Of a DNA stretch of 64,000 bases, positions 1 to 6,114 are shown piece after piece (the first letter of the stretch is position 1; each line of letters begins with the position of its first letter). A program made the translations under genes and the position numbers. The DNA comes from Chitinophagaceae bacterium (GTDB lineage: Bacteria; Bacteroidota; Bacteroidia; Chitinophagales; Chitinophagaceae). The stretch is from positions 2,637 to 66,636 of the forward strand of contig JAGFIS010000014.1 of assembly GCA_024103425.1 (NCBI GenBank), given 5' to 3'. Under the pieces are notes generated by a model that did no database searches, had not been told where the DNA came from, and worked only from the letters and a program-made list of their open reading frames with translations.

Positions 1-468
1 TTCCCTGATTTCTCTCATGTCTTGCACCTCTTTTTCGAGGTCGTATTCTGTACCGTCGATCAGGTGTTCGCAGAGGCGAACTGCCGATTTTGCCGCATAA
101 ACACCCACGTCTTCCTCCATATAATCGAAGATGACGAAGTACTCGCCGGGCTTCCCCGTTCCTCTCGTTCTTCCGAAACCCATATCCATCCCTGCAAGGG
201 TCTGCAACTCAAGCGCTACGTGCTCGATGACGTGGCCCATCCAGGTGCCTTCTTCCACTCTTTTGAAGAATCCGCCCGGCACACCTTCACTGCATCTGTG
301 TTGATACAGGCCGGGAAGCAAAGCTTCTAACCGTTCTCTGAAACCTGCGATTTTGTTGGTGGGTCTTTCTTCTAAATCTTCAAGGTCCAGGGTCATCTGG
401 ATGAGCTTGGGCCTCCGGATACTCCAATAATTTGGACCACGAAGCACTCTGATGTTTACGATCTTCAT
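1..468 (-). CDS. cphA: Cyanophycin synthetase, N-terminal part (runs off the window start; not in the ORF track)
   Basis: Manual translation from the ATG at 468: MKIVNIRVLRGPNYWSIRRPKLIQMTLDLEDLEERPTNKIAGFRERLEALLPGLYQHRCSEGVPGGFFKRVEEGTWMGHVIEHVALELQTLAG. This is the characteristic CphA N-terminus, open to position 1 and divergent from a cyanophycinase. Confidence 0.9.
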   Translation of the reverse strand, partial: MKIVNIRVLRGPNYWSIRRPKLIQMTLDLEDLEERPTNKIAGFRERLEALLPGLYQHRCSEGVPGGFFKRVEEGTWMGHVIEHVALELQTLAGMDMGFGRTRGTGKPGEYFVIFDYMEEDVGVYAAKSAVRLCEHLIDGTEYDLEKEVQDMREIRE

Positions 469-636
469 TCTGAGATATTTGTTGTGGAAAAGTTTGCGGG
501 TAGAAAAATAAGAAAGAATGAAAATCTTTTCAAATAAATATTTTTTACACAATGCTTTCCTGCAGATTCCGTTACATTTGTGACTAACCTTATATAAACG
601 GAAAATACCGGCTTTGTTTCATCAAATGAAATTTTC

Positions 637-1545
637 ATGGAAGGACCTCGCGGAAAACTATTTTCAATCGGAGGAGCAGAAGATAAAGGAGTAGATTTAG
701 AGAAAGGAAAAATAGAAAGAAACAACCTCAATTTTTTTGAACTGGGCATCCTGCGCAGGCTGGTTGAAGAAGCCGGCGGAACCGAGAAGCGGATAGAAGT
801 GATTACCACGGCATCGATGATGCCCGTGGAAGTTGGTGAAAACTATCTGAATGCCTTTGGAAAGATCGGCTGTACGAATATTGGGGTGCTGCCTATCCGT
901 AACCGGACTGATGCCATGAAAGAAGAATACGTTGAGCGCATCAGAAAATGCGATGCGGTGATGTTCAGCGGCGGTAACCAGTTGCGGCTGACTTCCTGCT
1001 TCGGCGGGACGGAATTTTTGGCGATTATCCAGAACAGATATTTGAATGAAGACGGCTTCCTGATCGGCGGCACATCTGCCGGCGGTATGGCTATGAGCAA
1101 TACCATGATTTATGAGGGGAATGCTTCTACGGCTCACTTGAAAGGCCAGGTAAAGCTGACAACCGGACTGGCATTTATGAAGGATGTCATCTTCGATAGC
1201 CATTTCGAAAAGCGTGGAAGATTCGGTCGTTTGGCTCAGGCTGTAGCGAGCAATCCTTCGGCAATCGGAATCGGATTGGGTGAAGATACGGGTATGCTTA
1301 TTCGTGAAGGCAATATTATGGAAGCTGTTGGCAGCGGGCTCGTTGTAATTATTGACGGCCACGACATCCGCCATAATAACATTGCTGATATTCCAGATGG
1401 CAACCCGATAAGCGTAGAGAATATCAAGGTGCATTTTTGCGAAAAAGGAAATGGATACCTTGTCAAAGAGAGGAAATTCATCACCGATATTTCGGCCTAC
1501 CTCGAAAGGTATGAGGAGGAAGAGGTTAAAGCAAAGGCTAAATAA
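637..1545 (+). CDS. cphB: Cyanophycinase (peptidase S51)
   Basis: IGGAEDK, FSGGNQ, GTSAG nucleophile elbow, DSHF and GIGLGEDTG motifs; adjacent to cphA. Confidence 0.9.
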   Translation: MEGPRGKLFSIGGAEDKGVDLEKGKIERNNLNFFELGILRRLVEEAGGTEKRIEVITTASMMPVEVGENYLNAFGKIGCTNIGVLPIRNRTDAMKEEYVERIRKCDAVMFSGGNQLRLTSCFGGTEFLAIIQNRYLNEDGFLIGGTSAGGMAMSNTMIYEGNASTAHLKGQVKLTTGLAFMKDVIFDSHFEKRGRFGRLAQAVASNPSAIGIGLGEDTGMLIREGNIMEAVGSGLVVIIDGHDIRHNNIADIPDGNPISVENIKVHFCEKGNGYLVKERKFITDISAYLERYEEEEVKAKAK

Positions 1546-1554
1546 CCATATCTG

Positions 1555-2664
1555 TTACGTAGGATTTTTCTTCAAGACCTCATACAATAATTGTTGCTGT
1601 TTAATATAGATCGGGTCTTTTTCGCCTCTTACCATCCTTACAAAATTGATGTACCCCTTAAGGCGATTAATGAATGTTGCCTTCTGGCCTTCAGAAGGTT
1701 GCCTGTTTAATTTGAAATGTTTTTTTGCTGCTGATTCAGGACCGTTGACAGAGAGGTCATGCAGCATAGCCCTGATTTTCTTCAGTAATTTTCTGTCAAC
1801 ATTTATTTTATTATTTACTGTAAGGCCGGTTACTGTCTGCTTCCTGCCCGCATTGCGTACCCTCAGTTTTTTCTCATTGATAGCGAAATCATTTTTTCTG
1901 ATCTCATTGATGATATCCAGAATAAGGTCGGTAGATATGTGTTCTTTAGAGGAGAAAGTAAGGTCGTCAGCATAGCGCGAGTAGGAGAGTCCATGAAGAA
2001 AGGAAAATGCTTTCAGTTCCTTGTCTAACTGATAACAGATAAAATTGGATAGTACGGGAGAGCTAGGGGCTCCTGTCGGCAGATGCCCGTTGTAAGTGGT
2101 CAGCAGGGCGAGTACTGTAGCCATTTGACGGGTGAAGCCGAAGAACTCAGAGGAGAAAAGCCGGAACACTCTGTTTGCGGTAACTCGGGGGAAGAAGTCT
2201 TTCAGGTCGATGTTCAATACCGCTTTCTTTCCTGTATGTCTCTCTGCATTCGCAACGATGTTACAATTATCCTCGGTGAGGAGAGCATTGATGACAAAGC
2301 CATGAACTTCATCCGGTTTTATCCAGAAATAATAGGCCTGCAGATAATGGTTGAGCTTCTTTTGTAATTCCTTTAGTCCTTCTTCAGGAGCCAGTATTTC
2401 TCTGTATCCGCCTCTCTTTTTGGGGATTTGAAACGCTCTGTATGAAGGATAATTGATGATATGTTCCAGTTGGGACATAGGAATTTCTAAGAGACGACAA
2501 AGTTCGCCGGGAGTGCCAATCGAAAGGAAAAGAAGTGCATCCGTCTGGTATTTCTGAAACCCGGCCAGCGTGGAGGACCTGTGCTCAGGTTTCCCGAAGA
2601 AAATTTGATGCAGCCGTTTCTTTTGCATCTCAGAGATGGAGCGTATTTTTCTTACTTTCTTCAT
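1555..2664 (-). CDS. Retron-type reverse transcriptase (369 aa)
   Basis: IPKKRGGYREI, NAERH (retron region X NAxxH, aa 139-143), IDLKDFF, LPTGAPSSP, YADD (aa 231-234) and VTG (retron region Y, aa 278-280). No maturase/endonuclease or Cas1 domain seen. Confidence 0.92.
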   Translation of the reverse strand: MKKVRKIRSISEMQKKRLHQIFFGKPEHRSSTLAGFQKYQTDALLFLSIGTPGELCRLLEIPMSQLEHIINYPSYRAFQIPKKRGGYREILAPEEGLKELQKKLNHYLQAYYFWIKPDEVHGFVINALLTEDNCNIVANAERHTGKKAVLNIDLKDFFPRVTANRVFRLFSSEFFGFTRQMATVLALLTTYNGHLPTGAPSSPVLSNFICYQLDKELKAFSFLHGLSYSRYADDLTFSSKEHISTDLILDIINEIRKNDFAINEKKLRVRNAGRKQTVTGLTVNNKINVDRKLLKKIRAMLHDLSVNGPESAAKKHFKLNRQPSEGQKATFINRLKGYINFVRMVRGEKDPIYIKQQQLLYEVLKKNPT

Positions 2665-2679
2665 GGCTGATAAATAAGA

Positions 2680-2845
2680 GAGCCGCTGTCCCGATTATCT
2701 TTGAAAACTTTCGCTATTGATGAGAGCGCAGCGAAGCGAGCACCGATAGCAATAGCGGAATGACTTCGCCCGTTTTCTCATGGGTTGCAGGAACACAACC
2801 GCCTTGTCTTTACAGTTTGACAACATAATTTTAAGGCAGCGGCTC
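2680..2845 (-). ncRNA. Candidate retron ncRNA (msr-msd)
   Basis: Terminal inverted repeats GAGCCGCTG (2845-2837 on minus) and CAGCGGCTC (2688-2680). Two small msr-like stem-loops (2804-2823, 2783-2800) and a long msd-like hairpin (2709-2760). Lies directly upstream of the RT start. Confidence 0.8.
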
Positions 2846-2853
2846 AATATTTT

Positions 2854-3903
2854 TTATTCAAAAGGATTGTCTAACTCATCCAGTCTTTTTTGAATGACAA
2901 ACAAATCTCTTTTTTCTTCTTTATAATCATAGAAACAGGTAAACTCTTCATCTGCCTTCAATATCACCTTACCCGCCTTTCCGTTTCTGTTCTTTGCAAA
3001 GATGATTTCAACTTTTCTTTCCGTATCATTCCCAAATTCGTCTAAAGCATAACCGTAGTATTCGGGGCGATAGAGCAGCAGCACCTTATCTGCATCCTGC
3101 TCGATAGCGCCACTGTCTCTGAGGTCAGACGGTATCGGCCGCTGACCTGTCTGGGTGCGGTACTCGGCAGCACGGCTTAGTTGGCTTAAGGCTATGACAC
3201 ATACATTAAGGTCTCTGGCAATGTTCTTCAGTTCGCGTGTGATATAACCGATTTCTATCTCCCGGTTATGCCGGTATCTGTTGGTGCTCATCATTTGCAG
3301 ATAGTCGACTATTATCACTTCTACTCCGTTTTCCTCTGCCTGTTTCCGGCATTCATTCTTTAATGCTTGTACAGAGTAATTACAAGTGTTGTTAATAAAT
3401 ATTTTTTTATCCTGAAACTCTTTTAAAACATCTCTCAGAGATTTTGCAGCATCTTCCGGGTAGCTGCCATCCAAAATTTGATTTACGGGTATGCCTGACA
3501 GACAGGATATAAATCGCTGAGCCAAGAGTGTGTCTGAAAGGTCAAACGTAAAATACAGTACCGGTGCCCGGTCTGCAATGTTAAGTGCCAGGTTGACCAT
3601 CAGTTGTGTCTTGCCCATGGCGGGCCTGCCTCCGAGTACTACTAATTCGCCCCGGGCTAACCCGCTGTAGTTTTCATCAAAGTCTTTGAACCCGGTGGTA
3701 ATGATATCCCTCCCCTGTTCTCCCTTTTCAAGTCGTTGAATATTCTCCGCCACCAGGGTACTTATAGGAACGGATTCTCCGATTTCCTTTGCAAACAATT
3801 CGTTGTTGAGCAGCAGCTGTCTCAAATGCAGAATTAATTCTACCTCAGAAAGGGACGGGTTTTCAATCAGGTTTTCAATTCTCTTTTTAATACCGGGTGT
3901 CAT
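2854..3903 (-). CDS. DnaB-like helicase, C-terminal RecA domain only (349 aa), putative retron partner
   Basis: Walker A GRPAMGKT, Walker B IIVDYLQ, ALSQLSR, DLRDSGAIEQDAD and AKNRNG finger. Lacks the N-terminal primase-binding domain. H1a reads FTFDLS instead of FSLEMS. Confidence 0.85.
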   Translation of the reverse strand: MTPGIKKRIENLIENPSLSEVELILHLRQLLLNNELFAKEIGESVPISTLVAENIQRLEKGEQGRDIITTGFKDFDENYSGLARGELVVLGGRPAMGKTQLMVNLALNIADRAPVLYFTFDLSDTLLAQRFISCLSGIPVNQILDGSYPEDAAKSLRDVLKEFQDKKIFINNTCNYSVQALKNECRKQAEENGVEVIIVDYLQMMSTNRYRHNREIEIGYITRELKNIARDLNVCVIALSQLSRAAEYRTQTGQRPIPSDLRDSGAIEQDADKVLLLYRPEYYGYALDEFGNDTERKVEIIFAKNRNGKAGKVILKADEEFTCFYDYKEEKRDLFVIQKRLDELDNPFE

Positions 3904-4042
3904 GCGATAAAGTTAACCCAAAGACCGGGTATTTTTATTAACATTTCCGGAATACAATCAACAATCTATACTCCTGCGTATGTGGAAAAACGAAAATGGA
4001 GAATGAATTTCTGCAGACCGGTAAAAATGAATTTGTGTAAAA

Positions 4043-4897
4043 TTAGAAGACCCCCTTTGCAAAGGTGTTACCCTGATTCAGATCGCCTGTTTCGAATCCT
4101 TTTTTGAACCAATACATTCTCTGTTCAGAAGTTCCATGGGTAAAGGAGTCGGGGGTTACAGTACCCTGATATTTTTTTTGCAGCCGGTCATCTCCGATGG
4201 CATTGGCAGCTTCAAGGGCTTCGCGGATGTCCTGAGCGTGGATAACATTTTTCATCTTCTGATTATAATGCGCCCATATTCCGGCGTAGAAATCGGCTTG
4301 TAACTCTAGTCTTACGCTGTATTTATTGTATTCAGTTTCTGAAACCTGTCCCCTGATTTGGTTCATCTTTTCAGTAAGACCTAGTAGATCCTGTACATGG
4401 TGCCCGATTTCGTGTGCAATAACATAGGCCATTGCAAAGTCTCCCTTTACACCGAACTCCTGCTTCAATTGTTGTGCGAAAGAGAGGTCAATATATACTT
4501 GCTTATCGGCAGGGCAATAAAATGGGCCGGTAGCCGCAGTAGCCCCGCCACATGCAGAAGTGGTACTACCTCTGAACATTACGAGGGTAGGCTCCTGATA
4601 GGTGCGCCCCATCTGGCGGAAAAGTTCGTTCCACACGTCTTCGGTATCTGCCAGTACTACTTTCACGAAGGCAGCCTCTTCTTCGTCGGCGGCCTCTTGT
4701 TCGGGGGTCATTGTAGTCTGCCCGAAACCATCCGGCGGGAAAAGCTGCTGGAGATCATTGATATCACCACCACCTAAAAAGAGTTGTGCGAAGATGAATA
4801 ACAGTCCGATGATACCGCCACCTAACGCCAATCCGCCGCCGCTGATGGCTCTCCTGTCGTCGACATTGCTGCTCTCCCTGCGTCCTTTCCAGTCCAT
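4043..4897 (-). CDS. Neutral zinc metallopeptidase (YpfJ family)
   Basis: N-terminal GRRESSNVDDRR, Gly-rich TM segment, GPFYCPAD, AHEIGHHVQ (HExxH), ELQADFYAG, FTHGTSEQR. Confidence 0.9.
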   Translation of the reverse strand: MDWKGRRESSNVDDRRAISGGGLALGGGIIGLLFIFAQLFLGGGDINDLQQLFPPDGFGQTTMTPEQEAADEEEAAFVKVVLADTEDVWNELFRQMGRTYQEPTLVMFRGSTTSACGGATAATGPFYCPADKQVYIDLSFAQQLKQEFGVKGDFAMAYVIAHEIGHHVQDLLGLTEKMNQIRGQVSETEYNKYSVRLELQADFYAGIWAHYNQKMKNVIHAQDIREALEAANAIGDDRLQKKYQGTVTPDSFTHGTSEQRMYWFKKGFETGDLNQGNTFAKGVF

Positions 4898-5160
4898 AAC
4901 GTTGAATTAAAGAGGTAATTGAAAGTTCAAATATATCTTATTTTAAAAAAAACTAATCAGGGCTTTGCTCCCGGTACCGAACCGGGCTGCACAAAATATT
5001 CTAAGCCCCGGACCCTGTGAATGCCCTTTTCGGGGTTTAAAAAAGGTTAAAAAAGCCGGCCATTATTTTTTCGAGTCAATTTTTATATAGATTATCAATG
5101 AGTTATGAAGGTGCGATAAAAAAAGTGCCCAAAAATCATACGAATGAGAGAAAGCAATCA

Positions 5161-5168
5161 TACCTTTG
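5161..5168 (+). promoter_or_regulatory. Bacteroidota -7 promoter element (TACCTTTG) for the rplM operon
   Basis: Exact TAnnTTTG match ~70 nt upstream of rplM; no clear -33 TTTG seen. Confidence 0.65.
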
Positions 5169-5238
5169 CACTCCTTTTTAAAAATGCCGGGTTAGCGGCA
5201 TTAGTTTTCACCGGCAGCAATGCCAAATAAAAAACAAA

Positions 5239-5694
5239 ATGAGTAAACTACATTTCACAACAAAACATGCGAACGAGGCTGGCATACAGCGCAACTGGTA
5301 TGTTGTAGACGCCACTAATCAAACCGTAGGCCGCATGTGTGCAAGAATTGCATCTGTTCTTCGCGGAAAGAACAAGGCCTATTATACTCCACACGTAGAT
5401 TGCGGAGATTATGTAATCGTGGTAAATGCGGAGAAAGTAAAATTCACCGGAAACAAACTGGATGAAAAGGAATACCTGACTTACAGCGGTTATCCCGGAG
5501 GCCAGAAGCGTGTTATCGCTGCAGATCTGCAGGCAAGACGCCCCGAAGTAATTATCGAAAGAGCAGTAAAAGGAATGCTTCCTAAAAACCGTTTGGGACG
5601 TAAGATGTTCAAAAAACTGTTTGTTTATGCAGGCAATGAACATCCGCATACAGCTCAGAATCCTCAACCATTAATCACTCAAAAACAAGGGTAG
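5239..5694 (+). CDS. rplM: 50S ribosomal protein L13
   Basis: [41 protein letters not shown]. Confidence 0.98.
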
Positions 5695-5724
5695 TAAGTT
5701 ATTACCCGTTAATAATATTGTACA

Positions 5725-6114
5725 ATGGAAAAACAGAATAACGCAACCGGTCGCAGAAAAGAAGCCGTAACACGTGTATTTATCAAGAGTGGCAAAGGAA
5801 GTATTACTGTAAACGGTAAAGATTACAAAACATACTTTCCGCTGATGTACTTACAGAATCAGTTGGAACTCCCTCTTAAGACTGTAGAATCTCTGGACAA
5901 ATTCGATATAGTTATCAACGCCACCGGCGGGGGGGCTAAAGGGCAGGCAGAAGCTGCAAAACTCGGAATTGCCCGCGCATTGATTAGTGTAAACCCTGAG
6001 TTCAGGCCGGTACTTAAAGATGCCGGATTACTGACAAGAGATCCCAGAAGCGTGGAGAGAAAGAAACCCGGTCAGAAGAAAGCAAGAAAGAGCTTCCAGT
6101 TCTCTAAAAGATAA
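5725..6114 (+). CDS. rpsI: 30S ribosomal protein S9
   Basis: ATGRRKEAV start, C-terminal RKKPGQKKARKSFQFSKR. Confidence 0.98.
   Translation: MEKQNNATGRRKEAVTRVFIKSGKGSITVNGKDYKTYFPLMYLQNQLELPLKTVESLDKFDIVINATGGGAKGQAEAAKLGIARALISVNPEFRPVLKDAGLLTRDPRSVERKKPGQKKARKSFQFSKR

What the first reader, a model, noticed from the sequence alone, without database searches (positions are those of the whole stretch)
2680..2845. Complete retron-like msr/msd architecture in the DnaB-RT intergenic region
On the minus-strand RNA, 5' GAGCCGCUG (2845-2837) pairs perfectly with CAGCGGCUC (2688-2680) and can extend through a C-A mismatch and G-U pairs. Stem-loop 1 is UUGUC-10 nt-GACAA (2823-2804). Stem-loop 2 is GGUUGUG-UUCC-UGCAACC (2800-2783); its G-U pairs work only on the minus strand, matching the RT orientation. 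A long hairpin follows (2760-2709). Candidate branching G: 2824 (first unpaired G, just before stem-loop 1) or 2837. Predicted msDNA is ~70-75 nt with plus-strand sequence from about 2691 to 2765.
Basis: partly seen in the sequence, partly recalled or inferred. Interest (0 to 1): 0.8.

Follow-up and report, generated by a model that had tools for sequence, protein, structure and literature searches.

The report
Retron template RNA beside DnaB-like gene
The 170-base stretch between a shortened DnaB-type helicase gene and a reverse transcriptase gene is a real, conserved structured RNA with the full layout of a retron template (the RNA that bacteria copy into small single-stranded DNA, usually for phage defence). 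This gene combination was already described by computer in 2026 but has never been tested at the bench.

Summary
Observation confirmed and interpretation largely supported.

- **Structure:** the 9-bp terminal inverted repeat, both small stem-loops and the long hairpin sit at the stated coordinates on the minus strand.
- **Conservation:** the same layout lies between a DnaB_C-like gene and a protease-less type XI-like retron RT in 45 loci of other species. A structure-naive alignment gave 97% pairing, with compensatory changes in 13 of 21 pairs. A covariance-model alignment gave 25 of 33, and 0 of 500 shuffles matched either.
- **Branching G:** G2824 is invariant (45/45) and directly follows the closing helix, so it is the better candidate. 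G2837 covaries inside the stem and is rejected.
- **msDNA start:** it is more likely templated from A2700 than from about 2691, because 2694-2698 belongs to an unreported, covarying helix (AUUAU/AUAAU).
- **New details:**
  - a G·U-rich alternative RNA helix competes with the long hairpin;
  - a d(C-GNA-G) mini-hairpin signature sits at the hairpin tip in cDNA sense.
- **Novelty:** the system matches the published description of 'TXI_noncan_h' (Toro 2026, mSystems), which is computational only, so this is a new member of a known kind. This scan has already found the same system on several other genomes.

The parts
2854..3903 (-). DnaB_C-like ATPase gene (349 aa). It lacks the N-terminal primase-binding domain and is the conserved partner and presumed effector.
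   Evidence: Pfam DnaB_C 261 bits at residues 68-325. TIGR00665 scores 279 bits, below its 385 cut-off. The genome has a separate 498-aa DnaB on another contig. A homologue lies directly upstream of the RT on the same strand in all 43 related loci with upstream DNA, plus L087 and L088. Walker A/B, SQLSR, SDLRxSGxIEQDAD and KNRxG are conserved.
2676..2849 (-). Whole msr-msd non-coding RNA, as delimited by the covariance-model hit.
   Evidence: R1 hit of 133.9 bits, E about 1e-29, the only hit in the window. No Rfam family matches.
2837..2845 (-). a1, the 5' arm of the terminal inverted repeat (GAGCCGCUG). A weaker extension runs to 2833.
   Evidence: pair I4. Helix 1: 99% of cells paired and 7 of 9 pairs with compensatory changes.
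2825..2829 (-).
   Evidence: Pairs with 2694-2698. C-G replaces A-U in 5 loci and U-A replaces A-U in 1 locus.
2824..2824 (-). Candidate branching (priming) G.
   Evidence: G in 45/45 aligned loci, immediately 3' of the closing helix. The position matches the branched rG15 that follows the inverted repeat in Retron-Eco2 (PMC12405507). The 2'-5' branch itself is not shown.
2804..2823 (-). msr stem-loop 1 (UUGUC / GACAA).
   Evidence: A hairpin at this place in essentially all loci, with different stem sequences. All 4 modelled pairs have compensatory changes (helix 3).
2783..2800 (-). msr stem-loop 2 (GGUUGUG-UUCC-UGCAACC), the most sequence-conserved element.
   Evidence: 100% of cells paired, 3 of 6 pairs with compensatory changes, and the U.G wobble invariant in 43/43 (helix 4).
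2764..2781 (-). 5' arm of an alternative RNA helix (AUGAGA...CGGGCGAAG) that pairs with 2720-2736 inside the msd hairpin loop.
   Evidence: Part of the MFE fold. Found in the window's clade and a sister clade with 12-22 bp and 2-5 G.U pairs per locus. 74.9% paired against 69% in shuffles and 42-50% in slid controls.
2709..2760 (-). msd hairpin (core CGCUAUUG 2755-2748 / CAAUAGCG 2719-2712), with a 30-nt apical region.
   Evidence: pair I2. A hairpin at the same place in 44/44 loci with unrelated stem sequences, beating shuffles at p <= 0.05 in 40/44, and only 3.3% G.U pairs. All 8 modelled pairs have compensatory changes (helices 5 and 6).
2726..2737 (+). Two overlapping heptamers in cDNA sense, GCGCAGC and GCGAAGC, of the d(x-C-GNA-G-x') mini-hairpin type, at the hairpin tip.
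   Evidence: Read. The same heptamer is present in 34/44 loci, with N variable (C 18, A 11, G 10, T 1) and the outer pair switching A:T (16) / G:C (17).
2699..2700 (-). Invariant G2699, opposite the branching G, and A2700, the predicted first template base (msDNA 5' dT).
   Evidence: G in 45/45 and A in 41/45 loci. Placing the start here is an inference by analogy: Retron-Eco2 begins with dT1 joined to rG15.
2694..2698 (-). 3' arm (AUAAU) of the inner closing helix P1b.
   Evidence: helix 2.
2680..2688 (-). a2, the 3' arm of the terminal inverted repeat (CAGCGGCUC). It ends 15 nt before the RT start codon.
   Evidence: In 44 loci the repeat ends 5-26 nt before the RT ATG.
1555..2664 (-). Retron reverse transcriptase (369 aa), type XI-like but with no fused protease.
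   Evidence: RVT_1. PADLOC RT-Protease_XI 329 bits, over model positions 6-315 of 506 only. NAERH at 139, YADD at 231, VTG at 278. NCBIfam retron models score 195-272 bits, against group II intron 50 and Drt2 37.

Best explanation
The spacer at 2676-2849 (minus strand) encodes the msr-msd RNA of a three-part retron. The order is a DnaB_C-like ATPase gene, the non-coding RNA, then a protease-less type XI-like reverse transcriptase.

Shown by comparison of loci:
- The RNA is closed by a two-segment stem: a1/a2 plus AUUAU/AUAAU.
- Inside it are two msr stem-loops and an msd hairpin.
- All of these are kept by compensatory changes.
- The two genes and the RNA travel together as a self-contained unit of about 2.3 kb.

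Inferred from established retron biology and the solved relative Retron-Eco2:
- The RT binds the folded RNA and uses the 2'-OH of the invariant G2824 as primer.
- It copies the template from A2700 towards the 5' end, through the hairpin.
- It stops a few bases 3' of stem-loop 2. The product is a branched single-stranded DNA of about 62-83 nt (plus-strand sequence from 2700 to about 2761-2782, best guess about 2773).
- The DNA carries a Watson-Crick hairpin tipped by a GNA-type mini-hairpin.

Further inference, weaker:
- The RT-msDNA complex holds the DnaB-like ring ATPase inactive.
- A phage that disturbs the msDNA, or that targets DnaB-type helicases, releases it. It then interferes with replication and aborts the infection.
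For: - Retron RT identity.
- Architecture at the stated coordinates.
- One strong, strand-specific covariance-model hit in the window.
- The spacer between the DnaB-like stop and the RT start is 168-210 nt in 41 of 44 loci, although the proteins are only 35-59% identical.
- Terminal repeats in 44/44 loci.
- On a structure-naive MAFFT alignment, 97.1% of cells are paired, 13 of 21 pairs have compensatory changes, 0 of 500 shuffles reach this, and slid controls give 28-59%.
- On the model-fitted alignment, 94.7% are paired, 25 of 33 pairs have compensatory changes, and 0 of 500 shuffles reach this.
- G2824 and G2699 are invariant.
- The msd hairpin is in all loci and almost free of G.U pairs (3.3%), as expected if its DNA copy must also pair.
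- A GNA heptamer with a covarying outer pair is found in cDNA sense.
- Two loci not used to build the model (L087, L088) show the same gene-RNA-gene order.
- No third conserved gene is present.
- RT and DnaB-like divergence are correlated (r = 0.83, 0 of 2000 permutations).
- Distribution is patchy (0 of 24 sampled congeners, 2 of 16 other families).
- Experimentally characterised relatives of this RT clade make msDNA. Retron-Eco2/Ec67 has rG15 joined to dT1 (PMC12405507). A retron census reports validated ncRNAs for clade 8, type XI (PMC10849725).
- The same gene combination, with an upstream a1/a2 RNA, was reported computationally by Toro 2026 (PMC13712802).
Against: - No msDNA, transcript ends or phenotype are available.
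- For this sequence alone, the RNA MFE fold prefers the competing helix over the msd hairpin.
- The predicted msDNA folded as DNA is not better than shuffles (z = -1.05).
- No promoter stands out. One sigma-70-like site ends at 2846, which would start transcription inside a1, and the number of sites is at chance level. The RNA may therefore be cut from an operon transcript.
- The model-fitted alignment leans towards the structure it was given.
- The loci are related, so shuffle counts overstate significance.
- The role of the DnaB-like protein is entirely inferred. Toro 2026 leaves it open.
Confidence: 0.78

Rival explanations
1. The RNA is a conserved RT-bound structured RNA, but the product is not a canonical branched msDNA. 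The RT could make another kind of cDNA, as the defence RTs of the DRT class do. Or the RNA could serve only as a scaffold that assembles the RT with the DnaB-like ring.
For: - Type XI retrons long lacked any recognisable ncRNA (Mestre 2020).
- The competing G.U-rich helix shows the RNA has conserved states that a simple template does not need.
- The predicted DNA fold is weak in this sequence.
Against: - The layout is the canonical one: terminal repeats, an invariant G at the end of the closing stem facing an invariant G, and a Watson-Crick-only hairpin.
- The RT matches retron models far better than Drt2 or group II intron models.
- Clade 8 relatives make msDNA.
Confidence: 0.12
2. The structured spacer is a cis-regulatory or processing element of a DnaB-like/RT operon, such as a leader, attenuator or RNase site, and is not a template.
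For: - It sits between two co-oriented genes with only 8 nt and 15 nt of slack.
- A U-rich tract follows a2 in most loci.
- No convincing separate promoter was found.
Against: - A long-range closing stem spanning 150-180 nt, with three to four internal hairpins and invariant unpaired Gs, is not the form of an attenuator or terminator.
- The hairpin avoids G.U pairs and carries a motif that is meaningful in DNA sense.
- The element co-occurs strictly with a retron-class RT.
Confidence: 0.04
3. The helicase and RT form the replication module of a small mobile element (a retro-plasmid or integrative element), and the RNA is its origin or primer.
For: - DnaB_C-only helicases are common in phages and plasmids (TIGR03600 phage_DnaB 238 bits, below its cut-off).
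- The distribution across genomes is patchy.
Against: - No integrase, replication initiator or other mobile-element gene is conserved next to the pair.
- In the window the flanks are housekeeping genes: cyanophycinase, cyanophycin synthetase and a Zn peptidase.
- The most conserved RNA element has no match in 2.9 million viral contigs.
- The unit is only about 2.3 kb.
Confidence: 0.03

Closest known systems
TXI_noncan_h: candidate protease-less type XI-like retrons with DnaB_C accessory proteins (N. Toro, mSystems 2026, PMC13712802; bioRxiv 10.64898/2026.05.14.725207)
   Same: - The RT is type XI-like without the protease.
- A separate DnaB_C protein is adjacent.
- The hosts are Bacteroidota.
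- A covarying RNA with a1/a2-like repeats lies just upstream of the RT.
- Nothing has been tested experimentally.
- The same genome also carries Toro's other lineage (WYL plus HisKin-conflict) on another contig.
   Different: - Toro reports the DnaB_C gene mostly 'downstream (+1)'. In all 45 Bacteroidota loci here it is upstream on the RT strand, with the RNA between the two genes.
- Toro describes a 'compact double stem-loop' of 23 bp, 22-104 bp from the ATG. He names no branching G and no msd hairpin.
- Here five helices (33 modelled pairs), two invariant Gs, an alternative helix and a DNA-sense mini-hairpin are resolved.
- The Bacillota/Mycoplasmatota DnaB-linked loci in my set (L059, L073) have a different, shorter RNA. 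They are not hit by my model.
Retron-Eco2 / Ec67 (type I-C, RT-Toprim fusion, RT clade 8; PMC12405507)
   Same: - It is a related RT (NCBIfam retron_Ec67_fus 252 bits, PADLOC RT-Toprim_I-C 308 bits).
- The branched G directly follows the inverted repeat.
- Its msDNA begins with dT, as predicted here.
   Different: - In Eco2 the effector is a Toprim nuclease fused to the RT. Here it is a separate DnaB-like ATPase encoded upstream.
- The Eco2 msr has one stem-loop. Here there are two (three in one clade).
Canonical type XI retrons (RT fused to a trypsin-like protease; Mestre et al. 2020, PMC7736814)
   Same: The RT domain gives its best match to these models (329 bits).
   Different: - The protein ends after the RT domain (369 aa against about 506-510), so there is no protease.
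- Mestre et al. found no ncRNA for type XI. Here one is clear.
Replicative DnaB helicase
   Same: - The RecA-type C-terminal domain has all NTPase and DNA-binding motifs.
- An acidic C-terminal tail ending in PF matches that of the genome's own DnaB.
   Different: - The N-terminal domain is absent.
- It scores below the DnaB equivalog cut-off.
- The catalytic acid is Asp in 30 of 40 family members, where DnaB has Glu.
- The genome has its own full-length DnaB.

Membership tests
Retron (RT + msr/msd ncRNA + accessory protein; Mestre et al. 2020) | RT of the retron class with NAxxH, YxDD and VTG motifs | tested here: met
   NAERH at 139, YADD at 231, VTG at 278. The top 25 PADLOC matches are all retron RT models. 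NCBIfam retron models score 195-272 bits, against group II intron 50 and Drt2 37.
Retron (RT + msr/msd ncRNA + accessory protein; Mestre et al. 2020) | Non-coding RNA directly upstream of the RT on the same strand, closed by inverted repeats a1/a2 | tested here: met
   A perfect 9-bp repeat at 2845-2837 / 2688-2680. Present in 44/44 loci. 7 of 9 pairs have compensatory changes.
Retron (RT + msr/msd ncRNA + accessory protein; Mestre et al. 2020) | Conserved branching G at the inner end of the a1 arm | tested here: met
   G2824 is invariant in 45/45 loci and immediately 3' of the closing helix. This tests conservation and position only.
Retron (RT + msr/msd ncRNA + accessory protein; Mestre et al. 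2020) | msd region forming a hairpin that is copied into DNA | tested here: met
   A hairpin at the same position in 44/44 loci, with all 8 modelled pairs covarying and 3.3% G.U. That it is copied into DNA is not shown.
Retron (RT + msr/msd ncRNA + accessory protein; Mestre et al. 2020) | Production of branched msDNA (2'-5' link) | not testable with these tools
Retron (RT + msr/msd ncRNA + accessory protein; Mestre et al. 2020) | Co-inherited accessory (effector) gene | tested here: met
   A DnaB_C-like gene lies upstream in every locus with enough DNA. Its divergence correlates with that of the RT. No other conserved neighbour exists.
TXI_noncan_h (Toro 2026) | Type XI-like RT without the fused protease | tested here: met
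   The best PADLOC match is RT-Protease_XI, but only over model positions 6-315 of 506. The protein is 369 aa.
TXI_noncan_h (Toro 2026) | DnaB_C-containing protein as a separate adjacent ORF | tested here: met
   PF03796 at 261 bits. Its position is upstream, whereas the paper reports mostly downstream.
TXI_noncan_h (Toro 2026) | The published upstream RNA motif (double stem-loop, 23 bp, a1/a2-like) | tested here: inconclusive
   A covarying RNA with a1/a2 is present. The published model and sequences are not held, so equivalence cannot be checked.
TXI_noncan_h (Toro 2026) | RT falls inside the published monophyletic lineage | not testable with these tools
In my own tree the Bacteroidota and Bacillota DnaB-linked RTs are not resolved as one clade.
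Canonical type XI retron | RT fused to a C-terminal trypsin-like protease | tested here: not met
   The protein is 369 aa and has no domain after the RT.
Replicative DnaB helicase | N-terminal primase-binding domain plus C-terminal RecA domain, above the equivalog threshold | tested here: not met
   Only DnaB_C is present, at residues 68-325 of 349. TIGR00665 scores 279 bits against a 385 cut-off. A separate 498-aa DnaB is in the genome.
Rfam RNA families | Match to any curated covariance model | tested here: not met
   No match in 2600-2900 at E <= 10.

The most novel reading that the evidence does not exclude
The RNA is a two-state template. Before reverse transcription, a G.U-rich RNA-only helix (2764-2781 with 2720-2736) hides the tip of the msd region. 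Copying into DNA then yields a Watson-Crick hairpin capped by an unusually stable d(C-GNA-G) mini-hairpin. That DNA tip is the specific ligand that plugs or loads the DnaB-like ring. The ring keeps the host helicase's acidic ...PF tail and so acts as a decoy for phage proteins that hijack DnaB. On this reading the retron is a guard of the replicative helicase.
Probability: 0.12. Interest if true: 0.75.

Novelty: new member of a known kind. Interest (0 to 1): 0.4.

Why it matters
Type XI-like retrons were the main retron group with no defined template RNA, and the DnaB-linked lineage is known only from one computational survey.

This locus, together with 45 relatives, gives a base-by-base model that can be tested:
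- the priming G (2824);
- the first template base (2700);
- five covarying helices;
- a competing RNA helix;
- a DNA-sense mini-hairpin.

With this model, msDNA detection, point-mutant tests and engineering of the msd loop can be designed directly.

A retron whose only partner is a look-alike of the replicative helicase also bears on a general question: how do retron effectors stop phages, and do some of them guard the replication machinery? As a discovery it is not new. The scan has met the same system on several other genomes and the pairing is published.

Tried and rejected
- **Rfam:** a scan of 1-6000 at E <= 10 found nothing in the spacer.
- **Supplements of Toro 2026:** none are held, so lineage identity could not be checked.
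- **Promoter and terminator scan:** the counts are at chance level. One sigma-70-like site ends at 2846, which would start transcription inside a1, so it was not used.
- **G2837 as branching G:** rejected, because the position covaries as a stem pair.
- **msDNA start near 2691:** rejected, because 2694-2698 is a covarying helix arm.
- **Third conserved gene:** clustering of flanking ORFs in 44 loci gave only local synteny among close relatives.
- **Phage carriage:** the stem-loop 2 sequence has no exact match in the viral contig collection.
- **Extension to non-DnaB relatives:** the model does not hit L047-L080 or the genome's second type XI-like RT locus.
- **Single-sequence folding of the predicted msDNA as DNA:** not better than shuffles, so it gives no support either way.
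- **Both helices at once as a pseudoknot:** considered unlikely. The 3' arm of the alternative helix abuts or overlaps the 3' arm of the hairpin, which leaves no connecting loop (read).
Full report
**Locus.** On the minus strand the window holds three elements in a row:
- a 349-aa ORF (2854-3903) with a DnaB_C domain at residues 68-325 and no N-terminal DnaB domain;
- a 189-nt spacer;
- a 369-aa reverse transcriptase (1555-2664).

The RT's best matches are retron RT models: RT-Protease_XI at 329 bits, then RT-TIR_XII and RT-Toprim_I-C. These matches cover only the RT part of those fusion proteins, so there is no fused effector. The RT carries NAERH, YADD and VTG. NCBIfam places it with retron RTs (195-272 bits), far above group II intron (50) or Drt2 (37), but below every curated cut-off.

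The flanks are housekeeping genes: cyanophycinase, cyanophycin synthetase and a Zn peptidase. The genome has its own 498-aa DnaB on another contig, so the 349-aa protein is a paralogue.

**Observation.**
- a1 GAGCCGCUG (2845-2837) and a2 CAGCGGCUC (2688-2680), perfectly complementary;
- stem-loop 1 at 2823-2804;
- stem-loop 2 at 2800-2783, with two G.U pairs;
- a hairpin with arms 2760-2750 and 2719-2709.

A perfect repeat of this length and span arose in 5 of 1000 shuffles. The MFE fold closes on a1/a2 with z about -2.6. No Rfam family matches.

**Related loci.** A scan of species-representative genomes with the RT found 80 loci.
- All loci with RT identity of at least 43% and enough upstream DNA have a homologue of the DnaB-like gene directly upstream on the same strand. 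That is 43 loci, nearly all labelled Bacteroidota.
- The spacer is 168-210 nt in 41 of 44 loci, window included, although the proteins are only 35-59% identical.
- Every one has a terminal inverted repeat of 8-17 bp spanning 149-184 nt and ending 5-26 nt before the RT ATG.
- No other gene is conserved next to the pair.
- RT and DnaB-like divergence are correlated (r = 0.83, 0 of 2000 permutations). Co-inheritance as a unit would give the same result.
- The RT was not found in 24 sampled genomes of the same genus. It was found in 2 of 16 other families of the order.
- Those two loci were not used for any model. Both have the DnaB-like gene, the RNA and the RT in the same order.

**Structure.** A plain MAFFT alignment (A1) already shows the invariant motifs UUAUG and GAUAA. 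It also shows an unreported inner segment of the closing stem: AUUAU (2829-2825) pairs with AUAAU (2698-2694). In that helix five loci have C-G in place of A-U, and one has U-A in place of A-U.

| Alignment | Pairs tested | Cells paired | Pairs with compensatory changes | Shuffles reaching this | Slid controls |
|---|---|---|---|---|---|
| A1, structure-naive (a1/a2, inner helix, stem-loop 2) | 21 | 97.1% | 13 | 0 of 500 | 28-59% |
| A3, realigned to covariance model R1 (all helices) | 33 | 94.7% | 25 | 0 of 500 | 27-56% |

- The model R1 was built from A1 with all helices. It was used to realign 45 loci into alignment A3.
- In A3, every pair of stem-loop 1 and of the msd hairpin has compensatory changes.
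- A3 is fitted to the model, so it leans towards the structure it was given. The loci are also related, so shuffle counts are not probabilities.
- The model hits the window once, at 2676-2849 on the minus strand (133.9 bits). Reverse-strand scores anywhere are at most 23 bits, against 68-169 bits forward.
- The U.G pair in stem-loop 2 is invariant. The strand assignment is therefore secure.

**Branching G and template start.** G2824 is G in 45 of 45 loci and directly follows the inner closing helix. Across the helix it faces G2699, which is also invariant. A2700 is A in 41 of 45. I reject it.

In the solved relative Retron-Eco2 (type I-C, same RT clade), the branched rG15 follows the inverted repeat and is joined to dT1. 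An 11-bp RNA-DNA duplex lies 9 nt after the msr stem-loop (PMC12405507). From my own memory of the Ec86 sequence, not checked here, the branching G likewise faces a G, and the first template base is the one 5' of that G.

By analogy, the msDNA here would begin with dT opposite A2700. It would end somewhere between 2761 and 2782, giving 62-83 nt, with about 2773 as the best guess. The 3' end cannot be set by computation.

   - It is present at the same place in 44 of 44 loci, with its 3' arm ending mostly 10-14 nt before the invariant G.
   - The stem sequences are unrelated between loci. It beats shuffles at p <= 0.05 in 40 of 44.
   - It has only 3.3% G.U pairs.
2. A competing helix:
   - In the window's clade and a sister clade, a second helix pairs the stretch just after stem-loop 2 with the apical region of that hairpin. 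In the window this is 2764-2781 with 2720-2736.
   - It has 12-22 bp with 2-5 G.U pairs per locus.
   - It is what the MFE fold chooses for the window.
   - On A3 it is 74.9% paired, against 69% in shuffles and 42-50% in slid controls. About 19% of its pairs are G.U.
   - Its 3' arm abuts the hairpin's 3' arm, so the two cannot form fully together.
   - A third clade lacks this helix and has a small third stem-loop instead.
3. A mini-hairpin at the tip:
   - In 34 of 44 loci the hairpin tip contains, read in cDNA sense, a heptamer x-C-GNA-G-x'.
   - N varies (C 18, A 11, G 10, T 1) and the outer pair switches between A:T (16) and G:C (17).
   - The window has two overlapping copies, GCGCAGC and GCGAAGC, at 2726-2737.
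   - From general knowledge, d(GCGAAGC)-type GNA loops are unusually stable DNA mini-hairpins, while the RNA-sense UNC loop has no such reputation.

A hairpin that avoids G.U pairs, together with a motif that makes sense in DNA, fits a region selected to fold as DNA. The G.U-rich competing helix can only be an RNA feature. This is suggestive, not proof. For the window alone, the predicted msDNA folded as DNA is no better than shuffles (z = -1.05).

**The partner protein.** Across 40 family members, Walker A (GKT/S), Walker B (D..Q), SQLSR, SDLRxSGxIEQDAD and KNRxG are conserved. The catalytic acid is Asp in 30 and Glu in 9. Most members end in an acidic tail with PF, as does the genome's own DnaB. 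It therefore looks like an active ring ATPase that lacks the primase-binding domain. What it does is unknown, and the sequestration-and-release model is inference from other retrons.

**Literature.**
- Mestre et al. 2020 do not mention DnaB and found no ncRNA for type XI.
- Toro 2026 (mSystems, PMC13712802) describes 'TXI_noncan_h'. [quoted passage not shown] A covarying 'double stem-loop' RNA with a1/a2-like repeats lies upstream of the RT. The paper states that msDNA synthesis remains to be shown.
- The window fits that description. The same genome also carries Toro's other lineage on another contig: RT plus HisKin-conflict plus WYL.

Differences from the paper:
- The DnaB-like gene is always upstream here, whereas the paper says mostly downstream.
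- The RNA resolved here is larger and more detailed.
- The two Bacillota/Mycoplasmatota DnaB-linked loci in my set have a shorter DnaB-like gene and a different 130-nt spacer with two hairpins. My model does not hit them.
- In my RT tree these two loci are not resolved as one clade with the Bacteroidota loci.

A retron census reports validated ncRNAs for clade 8, type XI (PMC10849725). RT-DNA production in this clade therefore has experimental precedent.

**Earlier notes of this scan.** The same system has been reported and followed up on several other genomes, each time matched to Toro's lineage. I found the paper independently. The notes on this window gave me the lead to the GCGAAGC motif and to the Glu-to-Asp change, and I checked both against the family.

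**Verdict.**
- G2824 is the branching G, not G2837.
- The closing stem has an extra helix, so the template starts at about 2700.
- The hairpin competes with an alternative RNA helix.

It is a new member of a computationally known, experimentally untested kind.

Noticed in passing
own genome, other contig: L089:60-3960 (G000:C11:14546-18505): A second type XI-like, protease-less retron RT (429 aa). A HisKin-conflict protein (424 aa) lies downstream and a divergent WYL+WCX protein (327 aa) upstream. This matches Toro's other lineage, TXI_C2like. The DnaB-type RNA model does not hit this locus.
   Followed up: partly
window 2764-2781 with 2720-2736 (minus strand): A conserved, G.U-rich alternative RNA helix that competes with the msd hairpin. 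It is present in two of the three clades, and the third clade has a small third stem-loop instead. Its role is unexplained.
   Followed up: partly
window 2726-2737 (plus-strand / cDNA sense): Overlapping GCGCAGC and GCGAAGC heptamers. The x-C-GNA-G-x' pattern recurs in 34/44 loci with a covarying outer pair, which points to a DNA-level mini-hairpin at the msDNA tip.
   Followed up: yes
window 2854-2901 (C-terminus of the DnaB-like protein): The acidic C-terminal tail ending in PF is kept in most of the 40 family members. It resembles the tail of the genome's own replicative DnaB (...EDSPF), so the paralogue may mimic a partner-binding site.
   Followed up: partly
L059:3109-4972 and L073:3207-5044: Loci from a Bacilli MAG and a 'Tenericutes' MAG also pair a much shorter DnaB-like gene (213-246 aa, 27% identity) with a related RT. 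Their 130-nt spacer holds two simple hairpins and is not hit by the Bacteroidota RNA model. It may be the 'double stem-loop' form of the published lineage.
   Followed up: partly
L054, L057, L058, L063, L068, L069, L071, L074: A well-supported clade of eight Bacteroidota stand-alone RTs (345-411 aa). They have no DnaB-like neighbour and no hit to the RNA model. Their partner genes were not examined.
   Followed up: no
L021, L024, L087 (RT ORFs of 473 aa): In one sub-clade the RT carries a C-terminal extension of about 100 aa that is absent from the window's RT. The extension was not characterised.
   Followed up: no
L017:1808-2333: A 524-nt insertion with repeated sequence and a masked run of N lies between the DnaB-like stop and a1. 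The RNA and the RT behind it are intact.
   Followed up: partly
L001 and L007 (record titles): Two loci that sit with Bacteroidota loci in the RT tree come from MAGs labelled Bifidobacteriaceae and Akkermansia. The cause could be a binning error or recent transfer, and it was not examined.
   Followed up: no
window 2846-2873 (minus strand): A sigma-70-like site (TAGACA-16-AATATT) ends one base before a1, and an ATATT motif precedes a1 in many loci. The number of such sites is at chance level, and Bacteroidota promoters differ from this consensus. The transcription start stays open.
   Followed up: no
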